Source: Heteronotia binoei | Lineage: Eukaryota | DNA: 64,000 nt | Assembly (NCBI RefSeq): GCF_032191835.1 | Contig: NC_083230.1 | Location: 79,360,001-79,424,000 of the forward strand | Direction: 5' to 3' | Shown here: positions 48,701 to 57,700 of the stretch, in pieces | Layout of the letters: each line of letters starts with the position of its first letter | Position numbering within the stretch: position 1 is the stretch's first letter | Position numbers: made by a program

Positions 48701-51700
48701 AGCAGCCAAAGGAGCAAATGTAACTCATGCTGAAACAGTCTGTTGATGTGCTTTGAATGGTGGCTGTAATTTGCTGGGGTGTTCCAATACCCTGGTGAAT
48801 TCCAAAAATGACGCAGCCCTTCAGTGGAGTGAATCTGTGGTCTTTCTATCCCTAAAGGATGACAAAGAAAGTCAAATGTTTATATTGAGGCACCTCATGC
48901 TCCAAGGGCCACTACAGATGTTCAGAATAAGGCAGTGTTTGTGGTTAATTTCTGGGCTTCCATGCCCCATCATCACACAGTGACTGACTATGGAAGTCAA
49001 CTACTTCTAATTTGTTCAGTTAGTTTTTTTTCTAGGCACCAGGGTTCCCAACCAAGATTAAACTATAGTTCAGAATCCTGATTACTAGGAAAGAATATCA
49101 TCTCAGAGTATTAATGCTATTGGGGTTCTGTCATCAGTCTCAGGGAAGGCATATTCAAGCCCAGCAATTACTCCTGGTGTGTGCCTGTCACAACCAAATC
49201 TATTTTTGGTGCAAAGAGGAATTGGCTATGCTATAGATTCCATCAAATCCATCCTGTTTCAGCAAGATGAGAGCACTCTAATTAATAGTGAGATCTCTTT
49301 CATCCCTGCCTGCTTTTGATGATTTCTGGCTAGGATTTGTTTCTTTTAAAAATAAATTTGTTAGTGAAAATGTAAATAGGAACTGTCCTGCTGAGTAAAT
49401 GCTTGGATGGAAGTGAATCAGAAAGATACCCATGCCCCCCAAGATCCTTTCCAAAAGTACTGAGAGATCTGAGCCACCCCTCTCACACTGCACTGTGCAG
49501 CTGCTGAGGAAACAAAATGCATCTTCTTCGTGGTCTCTGTGCAGTCCCACATATGGGTAATCCGTCAGGATCAAGCCCGACCTCGGAGAATTCAAAGCAA
49601 TCTTGAAGCGTTAATTTTAGCGCGCCCTCCCGTCGTCCCAGGGAGGAGGCATCACCTGCACATGCCTGGACGAAGGGGAGGCGCCTAACCCACTCAGTTT
49701 CTTCTTTACCGCCGTCCGGAACACACCTTCTTCACTGAGTCTCCTGTTTTTTCATCGCAATCCGATCCTTCACCGTCTTCATTCTTCGCTCTTCACTTCT
49801 CCTGGTATCGTTTAAAAAAAAAAGCTGTACTATCTCTTCAAACTTTTCCCGTCCCATTCCCCCCCCAGGCGGATGGAAGGGAAGGATAAAATCGCTTTCA
49901 AACCGTGTGTCCACTGTGCCGCTAAAATTCCATCGAGAGACGGCCACTTTTTATGTCTCTTTTGCCTCGGCGAGGCACACCATATTGATACTTGCGTGCA
50001 CTGTAGCCATTTCGGCAAACAAGCTCGAAAAAATCACGTCGCAAGACTCAGAAGCCATTTGCTTGAGTCATCTCTGCGCCCGGCTATGTCCCACGCCTCG
50101 GCTCCTCAGACTTCGCCACCATCCCTAGCTCTAAAGGGAATAGCGCCACTGGCAGCTTCCATGGCCTTGGTTCCCAGTAAGCCTAAGTCCGGAAAACACT
50201 CGAAGAAGTTGGACGATTCCAGGAAGCGTCACCACTCAGAATCGACTTCTAAGGAACCCGAAAACTCCTAAGAAACCCAAGACAAGCCATAAGCCATCGG
50301 ATCCAACTTTTTCGGCAAGGCTTCCCACACCGCACCCGACGGCCAGCTCTGGCGCCCCGGTTCCGACAACACCGGCCTCGAAGGCAACCTCGACACCTGC
50401 CATTACGCCTCTCGAGATCGTTCACATCCACTCTCGGTCGCCTTCGATCCATGAATCTTTACCGGAGCAAATACTGAACACCGAGTCCCCGGACTCGACC
50501 AGAAGCCAGTGCCTCAATATCCTGGACGTGCGCTCCTTCCGAGAGGTCTCATTATCTCCACAGACAATATGAGTACACTCCCTTCAAAGAGAGCCGTCGA
50601 CTCCGAAAGAACTGCCCATCCGTATCCGAGCCAAGAGGTCCAGAAGCGGTCACAGGGAACGCTACTACTACTATACTCCATCGAGGTCCAGGTCACCATC
50701 CCCTCGTGGATACCAAAGACACCGAAGGTCGCCATCCACGGGTTCTTATCGACATACCCATGACAATTCTCGGTACCGTGACGACCCCCGACGCCATGAG
50801 TCGCCTCAATACCGAGACCATACACACAGAGAAGACCGTTCTCGGTATTGTGAGACCCCTCCACGCCGAGAACATTCATATTATGAAGATCGTCCTCGGT
50901 ATCGAGAGGTCCCTGCTCACTATACTACGAAGCCTAGATCGTCTTCACCAGCCAGATCGACCTTGATCGGTTCCACCAAACCACGGACACAGCCCTCGCT
51001 AACAGAACTGACTACCAAACCTCTGGACTTAGACACCCAGGAAGAATCCGAGGCAGAGCACTCTGACTCCTCCCATTCCTCAACCTCAGGTCTCCATTCA
51101 CCAGCATCTGACATTGCAAAACAGACTGACCTATCTCCATCAGAGGGACCAAAATTCTACTTGGATCTCTTATCCAACATGGCGAACTCCCTCAATGTTA
51201 AATTAACCACTGACGCGCCTAGAGTCTCAGCTGTGGTCTACGACCTCGTACACGCTGACCTGCCTGCAGGCTCCTCCTTCCCGATGCTTCCAGTCCACCT
51301 CAAAACCCTGAAAGAGGCTTGGGACAAACCAGCATCAGTACCACCAACTTCAAAACGGGTCGAATCACTCTACAAGGTTCATGCCCCTGAGGCCAAATTT
51401 CTATTCAACCACCCTGCACCGAACTCCATGATAGTGCACTCGTCATCTAAATCTAAACAGACAAGACACCCTGTTCCTCCGGAGAGGGAAGGCAAAAAAC
51501 TCGACACGATTGGGAGAAAAATTTACTCCCTTACCACTGCCACTACAAAAATCCACAACTATATGACATACTTCTCAGCGTACGCCTTTCACTTAACCAC
51601 ATATCTGAACACCCTGGTTCCTTCTCTGCCTGAAGCAACACAAAAACAAGCCTCTCATGCCCTACAAGAGCTCGCGAGAGTCAGTAAGCAGTAGATTAAT

Positions 51701-54700: not shown

Positions 54701-57700
54701 ATGCAACCCACAACCAAGGCAACAAAATCTCAACTCAGAGATTTTCAAAGTGGATTGTGGCTGCCATTACATTATGTTATGAACTGGCAAAACAGCCAAT
54801 ACCAGAATATGTACGAGCTCACTCTACTAGAGCCGTTGCAACCTCATCAGCCTTCTGCAAGGGCGTCCCGATGGAGGACATCTGTGCTGCTGCGGTCTGG
54901 TCCTCCCCATCCACATTCGCCTCGCACTACGCCTTAGACGTCCGTGCTCAGCGTGACTCGTCCTTCGGACAGGCTGTGCTGTGATCCATCTTTGACTGAT
55001 CCTCCCTGACACTCAACCGTGAGTACAATCCTATTATTCTTGGCTTTACTAACCATATTTCTGGTTACAGACCCAGCACCCACCTTCTGACAGAATAGCT
55101 TGCTAATCACCCATATGTGGGACTGCACAGAGACCACGAAGAAGATGGACAGGTTTCTTACCTGTAACTAGTGATCTTTGAGTGGTCATCTGTGCAGTCA
55201 CACATGCCCACACATCCTTCCCCGCAGCTGGATGCTTATTATCAATAGAATTGGTCCACCTATACGGCGGCGGGAAGAAACTGAGTGGGTTAGGCGCCTC
55301 CCCTTCGTCCAGGCATGCGCAGGCGATGCCTCCTCCCCGGGACAACGGGAGGGCGCGCTAAAATTAACGCTTCAAGATTGCTTTGAATTCTCCGAGGTCG
55401 GACTCGATCCTGACGGATTACCCATATGTGTGACTGCACAGATGACCACTCGAAGATCACTAGTTACAGGTAAGAAACCTGTCCTTTTTGATGGCAGTGA
55501 ATGCAACTACCTTGATATTCTTAAGATAATACTTACCAAAAAAGAATGGGGAATGCGGGTGATATTGCATAGGAAGCCTATCTTGTAGACAGAAAACATT
55601 GCTCTTATTTCTTCTTAGAACACTGCTGGAACATACAGATTTTCCTAAGAACCATACAAAGGCTTTCCCATTGTGTGCATTTTAAAGTGCATTCCCTGAG
55701 AATGTAACCATCATTCCATTTTCACACACTGCATGGGAACAGTTAAGCAAGACAGCTCCTGTACCACTGTCCTACTTGCCCAGTTCCATTATTTCCAAGA
55801 CAGCAGAAAGGAGGGACCATACTGTAAGGAAAGCCCCTTCAATGCCTTTGTAGTTTTTTAAAGAGAAATTCATATGCTTTTTGTGCAGATAGGATCTATC
55901 ATTCCTGTTTTACAAGGACAGGAAAATGAGGATAAGATTTGATGATTGGACAGAAACCCCACACTGAAACTTGGAAAGTATGACAATAGTACAAAGGTAG
56001 TTGTTTTTGTCTTGTCAGCATTATATAAACTGTGTAGTTGCTGTATGTATTAGCTGACTAATCTATGCTGTCTGCAGTGGGGGAAACAGTGAATTCATGC
56101 CACCATTATGCTTATCTCTGGGGGAGGACAAGCTGCACACCTTTTTAACATGTCATAGTCTGGGCTCTCCCTGCACTGAAACAAACAGCCATCACTGGAG
56201 GAGGGAGGGCAGCAGTGAGGCGCCCTTCAATCATGCCTAGGCCCAAACCCAGTCAAAAACTACATCCTCAGCATTTAAATTGCTTGGGATGTGGTTTAAT
56301 TGCTGATTACGGCTTGGTAGGCCAATTTGTGGCTGCAAGTTGGGTGAACAAAATAACAAGTCCCACATCCTGGGAGTCTCTCTGTGTAGGTAAAAAGTAC
56401 CTGAAATACCTGGATCCCTGGTCATTTGGTACTTGGCCACTTCTTTTCAGAACTTTGGATTTTGGCATCTGCTGTACTCACTGTGGGTAACCTGGGTGGC
56501 AGATGTTTGTAAATGTTGCATCTTCTTGAAGAAAGAGATCTCGGATGACAGTCTTGTGGCAATGCTGTCAAGGTGAAAGAGGTCAACTGCCTGTGATGCT
56601 TACTTTCCCATTTCAGTAGCAGGGGAGATTAGGCCCAACTGCATATAAGTGATCCAAGCAACCACTTGGATTGACAACACTTTTATGGCAGCTGATCAAG
56701 TCTGGTGTCATATGAAATGGGTATGCAACGTTTCAGAGCATCCTGCAGCACAGCCTACCAAAACATCTTAGCCCAGCCCTGGCAGTGAGAACAAGAGCTG
56801 GGAATATGCTTCCCCCAGACAGTGCAGATGATGCTGATGAATCTACAGTTCCATAGACTAGACCCCCCGGAAAGAGGTTCCTTCAGGCTCACAGGAGGTT
56901 CTCTCTTTGCCGTTATCAATAGCAAGAAGAGAAGATCAGTCATTGCACAGAAGCACAGCAACCAAATAAAGTAATTTCAGTTCCTTTCTGATGTCAGGAG
57001 CTATCAGCAGAGTTATGGAGAACTCGTCTTATATACTCGCTATTTCTTACCAAAGCTGCCTGATGTAATTTGGGATGAAAAGAGAACGTGAAATGCCCTT
57101 ATATCCACAATGGTAAATGCTGGCTTGCTTCAAGGAGATGCAGCATTTACAAACATCTGCCACCCAGGTTACCCACAGTGAGTACAGCAGATGCCAAAAT
57201 CCAAAGTTCTGAAAAGAACTTGGGCTATGTGCAATGTGCAGGAATTCCATTCTCTTGTTTTATATCAGTTCTGTTCCTCAGCCCAGACTTGTAACTGGTC
57301 TCCTTGTGTCTAATCACCTGTAAAGAGTAAGGATTACCTAACAAAAGCTTTTCTAAGTGGATGCTTCTTAAGCCAGAAATGGCCAACACCGCAGGTCAGC
57401 TAGTAAGAAAGTTATGGGCCAATAACTTTGGTAAGTTTTTCTGCTTGTAAATTCCTTAGTTCTTAAATGGTTTTAACTGGCTGATTTTAGGCTTGAATGT
57501 AATATGTATTTACTCTTTTAATATGTCTTGCATCATGAAGTCAGAGTAGATCGCCACCCTGTCTGTCTCATGTTATGTGCCTCCTGAGCTGTTGAGATCC
57601 TAATAAGATCAGTGAGGTTTTTACTTACAGTAGCCTCTAGAGAGCTGAGTGGCTCCTTGCCCCAGAAACTTTGACCAGAACCAACAGTTGAAATTAGATC

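What the first reader, a model, noticed from the sequence alone, without database searches (positions are those of the whole stretch)
49521..55484. Structurally complete DIRS1-type retrotransposon with ITRs and an ICR encoding the exact circle junction
Seen: 174-bp ITRs, unique outer termini and a 97-bp ICR whose two halves are complementary to the left end (49521-49558) and right end (55426-55484). All ORFs are present and there is no TSD. Known: this is the DIRS1 architecture, which replicates through a circular intermediate integrated by a tyrosine recombinase and is absent from mammals. Inference: ITR divergence of about 4% and nine or so disabling lesions point to a fairly recent but dead copy, so younger active relatives may exist in this genome.
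Basis: partly seen in the sequence, partly recalled or inferred. Interest (0 to 1): 0.65.

Follow-up and report, generated by a model that had tools for sequence, protein, structure and literature searches.

The report
Dead full-length DIRS1-like retrotransposon copy
This is a complete-looking but broken copy of a DIRS1-type jumping gene in a non-mammalian vertebrate genome, a clear example of a known kind and not something new.

Summary
Window 49521-55484 (5,964 bp) has 184-nt inverted terminal repeats and a 27-28 nt right extension. A 100-bp internal complementary region (ICR, 55106-55205) has two abutting halves that are the reverse complements of the left end (41/42) and the right end (58/59). 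No target-site duplication was found.

The interior encodes, in order, a LAP2alpha-like gag, RT, RNase H, a Dam-like methyltransferase and a tyrosine recombinase. All three genes are broken. Pol has 4 in-frame stops. The recombinase has 1 stop and 1 frameshift. Gag has about 5-7 breaks.

Sizes of every structural part nearly match the published Anolis elements AcDIRS1/AcDIRS2 (PMC3266345, Table 3). The +2 frame over pol has 1 stop where 15.6 are expected. This is the known "long ORF overlap".

The nearest public proteins are only 52-56% identical and come from turtles and squamates. Copy number, Repbase/Dfam identity and active relatives could not be checked.

Verdict: an ordinary new member of a known kind, of low interest.

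The parts
49521..49704 (+). Left inverted terminal repeat. The outer 27 nt is the 'divergent' part and the inner ~157 nt the 'conserved' part. The first 41-42 nt are complementary to the left ICR half.
49873..52097 (+). gag-like ORF1 (broken). It has an N-terminal Cys/His cluster and a C-terminal LAP2alpha-like region. About 2-5 frameshifts and 2-4 in-frame stops, depending on the reference.
   Evidence: The gag piece has 441 relatives at E<=1e-3. Relatives of 684-823 aa align over 49783-52097. 2 of 8 relatives hit Pfam LAP2alpha.
52021..53985 (+). pol ORF (broken): RT (RVT_1 52387-52872), RNase H (53269-53391) and Dam-like methyltransferase (53563-53787). 4 in-frame stops and no frameshift. 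It ends at what looks like the native stop.
52167..54984 (+). Tyrosine-recombinase reading frame (broken), at +2 relative to pol. The upstream ~600 codons overlap pol and are kept open. The SAM-like N-domain is at 54027-54227 and the catalytic domain at 54345-54981. There is 1 stop in the overlap part, and 1 stop and 1 frameshift in the recombinase part.
55106..55205 (+). Internal complementary region. The left half (55106-55147) is complementary to the left end, and the right half (55147-55205) to the right end.
55274..55457 (-). Right inverted terminal repeat
55458..55484 (+). Right extension (rE) beyond the ITR, matched only by the right ICR half

Best explanation
Window 49521-55484 is one full-length, non-autonomous (dead) copy of a DIRS1-like tyrosine-recombinase retrotransposon (order DIRS, DIRS1-like superfamily). 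It is inserted on the + strand between a sesquipedalian-like PH-domain gene and an alpha-galactosidase/NAGA-like exon of a non-mammalian vertebrate.

How its active ancestors most likely worked, following the Cappello model as summarised in PMC7192593:
1. An RNA lacking the outer ends is reverse-transcribed by the element's RT/RNase H.
2. Most of the left repeat is rebuilt from the right repeat.
3. The missing termini are rebuilt by annealing to the ICR, which acts as a splint holding the right end next to the left end.
4. The joined molecule is inserted by the element's tyrosine recombinase without a target-site duplication.

Shown here by sequence: the repeats, the ICR-to-end complementarity, the absence of a TSD, the domain set and order, and the breaks.

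Inferred from Dictyostelium work and from comparative papers: the RNA, the cDNA steps, the circle and the recombination.

This copy cannot make gag, pol or recombinase, because each has stops and gag and the recombinase also have frameshifts. Its cis structures are far better kept.
For: Structure: ITRs, right extension and two-part ICR. The fold pairs the right terminus with its ICR half, z -16.5. No flank repeat. No long direct or terminal repeats; the longest of 7 direct families is 34 nt.

Element's own pieces against Pfam:
- RVT_1, 1.1e-24.
- RT_RNaseH, 5.5e-4.
- Dam, 0.0032.
- Phage_int_SAM_4, 0.011.

Recombinase: the two pieces match a Chelydra protein that UniRef names 'Tyr recombinase domain-containing'. 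One piece scores 8.5e-34 at 56% identity and the other 2e-27 at 47%. H-x-x-R and the C-terminal Y motif are shared (the motif names are recalled).

Relatives that reach the recombinase end (30 scanned): 28 RVT_1, 23 Phage_integrase, 18 Phage_int_SAM_1, 16 RT_RNaseH, 4 Dam.

Gag: 441 relatives. 2 of 8 relatives carry LAP2alpha, as published for DIRS1-like ORF1 (PMC4495291 passages; PMC9210276 passages).

RT: the nearest solved structure is Ty3 RT, 4ol8, 5.7e-10, as expected for DIRS RT (PMC3266345 Background).

Dimensions against AcDIRS1/AcDIRS2 of Anolis (PMC3266345 Table 3):
- Length: 5964 against 5938/5997 bp.
- Divergent ITR: 27 against 26/26.
- rE: 27-28 against 26/28.
- ICR halves: 42-59 against 40-58/39-60.

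Against: The recombinase assignment rests on sub-threshold profile hits and on homology to named relatives.
- The element's catalytic pieces give no Phage_integrase hit even at E<=10.
- Every Phage_integrase hit in relatives is below Pfam's gathering score.
- 0 of 30 relatives hit an NCBIfam recombinase model.
- PDB sequence searches with a piece and with a 10-row profile found nothing at E<=10.
- The fold could not be predicted.

The published 3-bp junction overlap is only 1 nt here if read strictly. A 3-nt reading gives CAT at the start, ATG in the ICR and CTT at the end plus flank, which agrees at 2 of 3 positions.

Gag relatives are only 31-41% identical, so the gag break counts are rough. 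6 of 8 gag relatives have no Pfam hit.

No other copy was available to show that this is a repeated family.
Confidence: 0.93

Rival explanations
1. The copy is still coding-competent, and the stops and frame changes are assembly or sequencing errors or programmed recoding.
For: The pol-to-recombinase frame change does look native. All 5 closest pol-only relatives end within 2-6 residues of the element's own pol stop. CpG observed/expected is still 0.69 against 0.12-0.21 in the flanks.
Against: Pol has 4 in-frame stops by 11 of 11 references. The recombinase has a stop and a frameshift by 6 of 6 full references. Gag has 5-7 breaks by 8 of 8 references. The paired repeats have also diverged, with 8 substitutions in about 257 nt. 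That many independent errors in 6 kb of otherwise ordinary assembly is unlikely.
Confidence: 0.03
2. An assembly artefact or a head-to-head chimera of two partial elements that only mimics ITRs.
For: Inverted duplications can arise from mis-assembly. The window contains one N run, at 17114-17248, far from the element.
Against: A chimera would not produce an internal 100-bp segment whose halves match the two outer ends at 41/42 and 58/59. It would not produce one colinear gag-pol-recombinase set with spans equal to those of relatives either: 963 residues against 966 codons for P0014. The total length is within 35 bp of the Anolis references.
Confidence: 0.02
3. A different tyrosine-recombinase or LTR element (Ngaro, PAT-like or Ty3/Gypsy) has been misread as DIRS1-like.
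For: The nearest solved RT is Ty3. Some databases name relatives 'Ty3-G Gag-Pol'.
Against: There are no terminal or split direct repeats; the longest direct family is 34 nt and is internal. A Dam-like methyltransferase domain is present (4 of 30 relatives), and Ngaro lacks one (PMC3266345 Background). No DDE integrase or protease hit was found in any piece.
Confidence: 0.01

Closest known systems
AcDIRS1 / AcDIRS2, DIRS1-like elements of Anolis carolinensis (Piednoel et al. 2011, PMC3266345, Table 3; passages read)
   Same: The anatomy is almost identical. Length is 5964 against 5938/5997 bp. The divergent outer ITR is 27 against 26 nt. Only a right extension is present, 27-28 against 26/28 nt. 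The ICR halves are 42-59 against 40-58/39-60 nt. There is no TSD. A long ORF overlap is present, as in AcDIRS2.
   Different: The conserved ITR part is longer, about 157 against 136-140 nt. The terminal trinucleotides differ: CAT...CTT with ICR ATG here, against CTT...CAT/AAG and TTT...TGT/AAA. The sequences themselves could not be compared, because Repbase and Dfam were not available. The best lizard or turtle proteins are only 51-56% identical.
DIRS-1 of Dictyostelium discoideum (PMC7192593: abstract and sections 3, 26, 29 read)
   Same: ITRs, a right-end extension, and an ICR whose two adjacent parts complement the two ends (33+55 nt there, 42+59 here). The genes are gag, RT/RH/MT and a recombinase whose frame overlaps pol.
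   Different: DIRS-1 is 4.8 kb with roughly 300-nt repeats in an amoebozoan host. It is the only member with experimental data (ICR essential; cDNA mostly linear and single-stranded). Nothing was measured for the present copy.
Turtle and Xenopus DIRS1-like families with a LAP2alpha-like ORF1 (PMC4495291 and PMC9210276, passages read)
   Same: ORF1 has a LAP2alpha-like domain, ORF2 carries RT/RH with DAM/MT, and ORF3 is the recombinase. ORF2 and ORF3 overlap. ITR plus ICR. Hundreds of copies are reported in turtles, anole and coelacanth.
   Different: Family identity is unknown. The element's own gag piece gave no Pfam hit at E<=0.01. The LAP2alpha link is through relatives P0193 and P0202.
Ngaro and PAT-like tyrosine-recombinase retrotransposons
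   Same: RT/RH plus a tyrosine recombinase, and no TSD.
   Different: They are bounded by split direct repeats, and Ngaro lacks the methyltransferase (PMC3266345 Background). Here there are inverted repeats plus an ICR, and a Dam-like domain.
Ty3/Gypsy LTR retrotransposons
   Same: The closest solved RT (4ol8, 7q5b).
   Different: This element has no LTRs, no DDE integrase and no protease hit.

Membership tests
DIRS1-like retrotransposons | Inverted terminal repeats | tested here: met
   184-nt arms. The inner part has 150 matches in 158 columns.
DIRS1-like retrotransposons | An ICR near the 3' end whose two adjacent halves complement the left and right termini | tested here: met
   41/42 and 58/59, E 1e-13 and 6e-23. 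Fold z -16.5.
DIRS1-like retrotransposons | A terminal extension (rE and/or lE) matched only by the ICR, and a 'divergent' outer ITR that follows its own ICR half | tested here: met
   rE is 27-28 nt. The outer 27 nt are 73% identical between arms but 97.6-98.3% identical to the ICR halves.
DIRS1-like retrotransposons | A 3-bp circular junction shared by both element ends | tested here: inconclusive
   Only 1 nt is shared strictly. A 3-nt reading agrees at 2 of 3 positions at the right end.
DIRS1-like retrotransposons | No target-site duplication | tested here: met
   No exact 3-12 nt flank repeat with offsets of +/-3.
DIRS1-like retrotransposons | gag-like ORF1 (LAP2alpha-like in vertebrate families) | tested here: met
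   441 relatives. 2 of 8 relatives hit LAP2alpha, best 1.5e-6. The element's own piece has no Pfam hit.
DIRS1-like retrotransposons | RT and RNase H domains | tested here: met
   RVT_1 1.1e-24. RT_RNaseH 5.5e-4, below the Pfam cut-off. The Y-I-D-D motif is seen in the translation; the motif meaning is recalled.
DIRS1-like retrotransposons | Methyltransferase domain after RNase H | tested here: met
   The element's own piece hits Dam at 0.0032, below the cut-off. Relatives hit Dam at 1.1e-7 and phage N6A methyltransferase at 3.2e-7, in 4 of 30 each.
DIRS1-like retrotransposons | Tyrosine recombinase with a catalytic domain in the non-overlapping 3' part | tested here: met
   Homology to a named Tyr-recombinase-domain protein. 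23 of 30 relatives hit Phage_integrase at E<=0.05, all below the cut-off. The PDB and NCBIfam searches were negative.
DIRS1-like retrotransposons | Tyrosine-recombinase fold of the C-terminal domain | not testable with these tools
DIRS1-like retrotransposons | A repeated family with other copies in the same genome | not testable with these tools
   No host or eukaryotic DNA collection was open. There is no second copy in the 64-kb window.
Ngaro / PAT-like | Split direct repeats | tested here: not met
   The longest direct repeat family is 34 nt and internal.
Ty3/Gypsy LTR retrotransposons | Direct LTRs and a DDE integrase | tested here: not met
   No direct terminal repeats. No integrase-core or protease hit in 13 and 6 pieces.

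The most novel reading that the evidence does not exclude
The frame at +2 to pol, which is the same frame as the recombinase, was kept open by selection across the whole RT-RNase H-methyltransferase region. It has 1 stop in 607 codons against 15.6 expected. The active ancestors may therefore have made a recombinase of roughly 940 residues whose first ~600 residues are read from the pol gene in another frame. That would be among the longest same-strand gene overlaps in an animal genome. The function of this part is still unknown, and no homologue was found in the searched length band of 254-811 residues.
Probability: 0.35. Interest if true: 0.4.

Novelty: new member of a known kind. Interest (0 to 1): 0.2.

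Why it matters
As a dead copy of a well-described element class it changes nothing in itself.

It is a clean, annotated example of the sauropsid-type DIRS1 anatomy: a divergent and a conserved ITR part, a right extension and a two-part ICR. It carries three internal measures of decay: ITR against ITR, ends against ICR, and CpG retention. It could therefore serve as a dating and annotation reference if the family proves abundant in its host.

The strong stop-codon depletion in the frame overlapping pol is a reminder that this long overlap, noted in the literature for half of the described elements, remains functionally unexplained.

Tried and rejected
- Whole-frame translations of the element were not accepted by the family scan because of stops. 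Single open pieces were used instead.
- The PDB sequence search with a recombinase piece found 0 hits at E<=10. The search with a 10-row recombinase profile also found 0 hits at E<=10.
- NCBIfam gave no recombinase model for 0 of 30 relatives.
- The 463-aa overlap-frame piece had no homologue among 3710 candidates of 254-811 aa. The Atlas could not read it.
- The cluster look-up of the neighbouring PH-domain protein, meant to learn the host clade, could not be made and was not pursued further.
- Rfam at gathering threshold found nothing in the window, and ARAGORN also found nothing.
- A weak IU_nuc_hydro hit (0.0053, below cut-off) on a recombinase piece is taken as chance.
- The near-invariant-column count (117 of 180 in pol and 99 of 140 in the recombinase kept) is of little weight, because alignment A3 is dominated by one group of closely related fish proteins.
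- LTR, Ngaro and PAT readings were rejected for lack of direct repeats.
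Full report
**Observation**

- The repeat finder reports inverted arms 49536-49704 / 55274-55442 (169 nt, 96%). It also reports two further inverted pairs linking 55106-55147 to 49520-49561 and 55142-55205 to 55426-55489.
- blastn of the element against the whole window gives the ITR at 94.5% over 183 columns (E 3.9e-76). The two ICR halves score 41/42 (E 1e-13) and 58/59 (E 6e-23).
- Reading, the arms run 49521-49704 and 55274-55457.
- The right end carries 27-28 extra bases (55458-55484) that have a partner only in the ICR.
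- The left end has no such extension.

The outer 27 nt of the two arms are only 73% alike, yet each matches its own ICR half at 97.6-98.3%. This is the 'divergent ITR / conserved ITR / right extension' layout described for DIRS1-like elements (PMC3266345, passages of section 10 and Table 3).

The reverse complement of the ICR reads right end then left end, with one shared C. A three-base reading would be CAT at the start, ATG in the ICR and CTT at the end plus flank, which agrees at 2 of 3 positions. No flank repeat of 3-12 nt exists.

As single-stranded DNA, the minus strand of 55100-55490 folds with the right terminus paired to its ICR half. The energy is -112.5 kcal/mol against -49.9 +/- 3.8 for shuffles, and 0 of 100 shuffles fold as well.

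**Coding content**

Only single open pieces, each in one frame, were used as queries.

Pfam on 13 pieces gave:
- RVT_1 at 1.1e-24.
- A weak Dam hit at 0.0032.
- One stray IU_nuc_hydro hit at 0.0053.
- Nothing for the other 10 pieces.

At E<=10, 6 pieces added RT_RNaseH (5.5e-4) and Phage_int_SAM_4 / SAM_1 (0.011 / 0.15), but no Phage_integrase.

In window coordinates the domains are:

| Domain | Coordinates |
|---|---|
| RT | 52387-52872 |
| RNase H | 53269-53391 |
| Methyltransferase | 53563-53787 |
| Recombinase N-domain | 54027-54227 |
| Recombinase catalytic domain | 54345-54981 |

*RT piece.* It has 869 relatives with E<=0.001 among 2610 candidates of 350-2000 aa. The best is 54% identical. 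Named hits are from turtles, squamates, a salamander and fishes.

*Recombinase pieces.* One piece has 10 relatives among 50 candidates. The best named one is a Chelydra protein that UniRef calls 'Tyr recombinase domain-containing', at 56% identity. The other piece matches the same protein at 2e-27 and shares the H-x-x-R and C-terminal Y motifs (the motif names are recalled).

*Thirty relatives.* I chose 28 of the 120 listed because their local alignments reach the recombinase end, plus 2 of the 10. Of these 30:
- 28 match RVT_1.
- 23 match Phage_integrase (best 3e-4, all below Pfam's cut-off).
- 18 match Phage_int_SAM_1.
- 16 match RT_RNaseH.
- 4 match Dam.
- In NCBIfam, 4 of 30 match a phage N6-adenine methyltransferase (3.2e-7) and none match a recombinase model.

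*Gag piece.* It has 441 relatives at E<=1e-3 in 1.84 billion representatives, 5 of them at E<=1e-30, and the best is 52% identical. Of 8 long gag relatives, 2 match LAP2alpha (1.5e-6 above the cut-off; 5.3e-4 below it), 1 has an N-terminal treble-clef zinc finger, and 6 match nothing. A LAP2alpha-like ORF1 is the published signature of vertebrate DIRS1-like gag (PMC4495291 and PMC9210276, passages).

*Solved structures.* The RT piece's nearest solved structures are Ty3 RT, 4ol8 at 5.7e-10 and 7q5b at 2.4e-9, among 202 hits.

**Breaks (counts only)**

A frameshift-aware protein-to-DNA alignment of my own printed only scores, counts and outer bounds.

| Gene | References | Result |
|---|---|---|
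| pol | 11 of the 120 | 4 in-frame stops and no internal frameshift in 11 of 11 |
| pol to recombinase | the 6 references that are fused pol-recombinase proteins | one frame change in 6 of 6 |
| recombinase | the same 6 full references | 1 frameshift and 1 stop in 6 of 6 |
| recombinase, catalytic part only | 2 references | the frameshift only |
| gag | 8 of the 150, 31-41% identical | 2-5 frameshifts and 2-4 stops, 5-7 breaks each |

For gag, the best reference gives 2 frameshifts and 3 stops.

The 5 closest pol-only relatives (43-50% identical) all end within 2-6 residues of the element's own pol stop. The frame change between pol and the recombinase is therefore probably native.

HSP chaining gave compatible counts. 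The top 30 references there show 2-5 pol stops, mostly 4.

Aligned spans agree with the relatives' lengths (for example 963 residues against 966 codons). No large insertion, deletion or nested element is present.

In total there are about 11-14 breaks. This includes one stop in the part of the recombinase frame that overlaps pol.

**Overlap frame**

Over 52165-53985 (607 pol codons), the three frames have these numbers of stops:

| Frame | Observed stops | Expected stops |
|---|---|---|
| pol frame | 5, including the terminal one | not applicable |
| +1 | 29 | 32.8 |
| +2 | 1 | 15.6 |

For the +2 frame, 0 of 2000 codon-order permutations were as low. The analytic expectation is the same, with Poisson P 2.8e-6.

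The +2 frame is the recombinase frame. Long overlaps between pol and the recombinase ORF are reported for half of 28 annotated DIRS1-like elements, including AcDIRS2. In those elements the catalytic domain lies in the non-overlapping 3' part (PMC3266345, Background and Table 3), as it does here.

The translated overlap piece had no homologue in the 254-811 aa band. Other length bands were not searched.

**Age**

Under the model summarised in PMC7192593 (section 3), most of the left repeat is copied from the right one and the ends are copied from the ICR. These pairs should therefore be identical at insertion; this is an inference.

They now differ by 6 + 2 = 8 substitutions, all transitions, in about 257 nt, plus one 2-nt gap. 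That is about 3%.

With neutral rates of 0.5-2e-9 per site per year (recalled; the host is unknown), this means roughly 8-30 million years.

CpG observed/expected is 0.69 in the element, against 0.21 and 0.12 in the 6-kb flanks. The copy is therefore much younger than its surroundings, or it was CpG-rich to begin with.

**Context**

- There is no second DIRS copy or coding fragment in the window.
- A 263-aa PH-domain ORF at 36881-37669 (-) resembles sesquipedalian proteins.
- An ORF at 62986-63294 (+) matches Melibiase_2 at 2.8e-24.
- DIRS elements are undetected in mammals (PMC3266345 abstract). They leave no repeats in the human genome and have not been detected in birds (PMC5753468 passage). 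Nothing suggests a human contig.
- The host is most likely a non-avian reptile or another non-mammalian vertebrate. It was not resolved further (could not be made).
- The N run at 17114-17248 was left alone.

**Comparison and novelty**

Every structural dimension sits within a few bases of AcDIRS1/AcDIRS2, apart from a somewhat longer conserved ITR. The domain order equals that of Xenopus and turtle families. It is a member of the DIRS1-like superfamily on all features that could be tested.

The recombinase fold could not be tested, and neither could the existence of other copies.

Family-level novelty is open. Supplements of PMC3266345 and PMC9210276 (per-family ORF and overlap tables) could not be seen and may bear on the overlap and on catalogued families.

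Noticed in passing
window 50001-56000: The element stands out from its flanks by strand composition. In the three 2-kb windows covering it, GC skew is -0.25, -0.26 and -0.15 and AT skew is +0.16, +0.11 and +0.01. In the six 2-kb windows on either side, GC skew runs from -0.04 to +0.07.
   Followed up: no
window 49521-55484 against 43500-49519 and 55486-61500: CpG observed/expected is 0.69 inside the element, against 0.21 and 0.12 in the flanks.
   Followed up: partly
window 36881-37669 (-): An intronless-looking ORF with a PH domain (5.9e-17). The nearest Atlas clusters are named sesquipedalian-1/-2, and the Atlas holds this exact protein.
   Followed up: partly
window 62986-63294 (+): An exon-like ORF matching Pfam Melibiase_2 (alpha-galactosidase A family) at 2.8e-24. 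Adjacency of a sesquipedalian-like gene and a NAGA-like gene is a vertebrate synteny that I recall but did not test.
   Followed up: no
window 56441-56535 and 57124-57218: A 95-nt inverted repeat pair, 97% complementary and 588 nt apart, about 1 kb downstream of the element. It may be a small foldback or MITE-like insertion.
   Followed up: partly
window 14151-14619, 30623-31107, 41897-42343, 43463-43971: An interspersed repeat family of about 450 bp, with four copies 71-86% alike in both orientations.
   Followed up: no
window 23056-23350, 40978-41276, 41488-41770: A second interspersed repeat of about 290 bp, with three copies 83-85% alike.
   Followed up: no
window 1392-1752: A 99-bp tandem repeat of 2.2 copies (85% matches) overlapping a palindromic stretch at 1410-1752.
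   Followed up: no
window 17114-17248: A single run of 135 N. It was left untouched, and ORFs spanning it were not searched.
   Followed up: no
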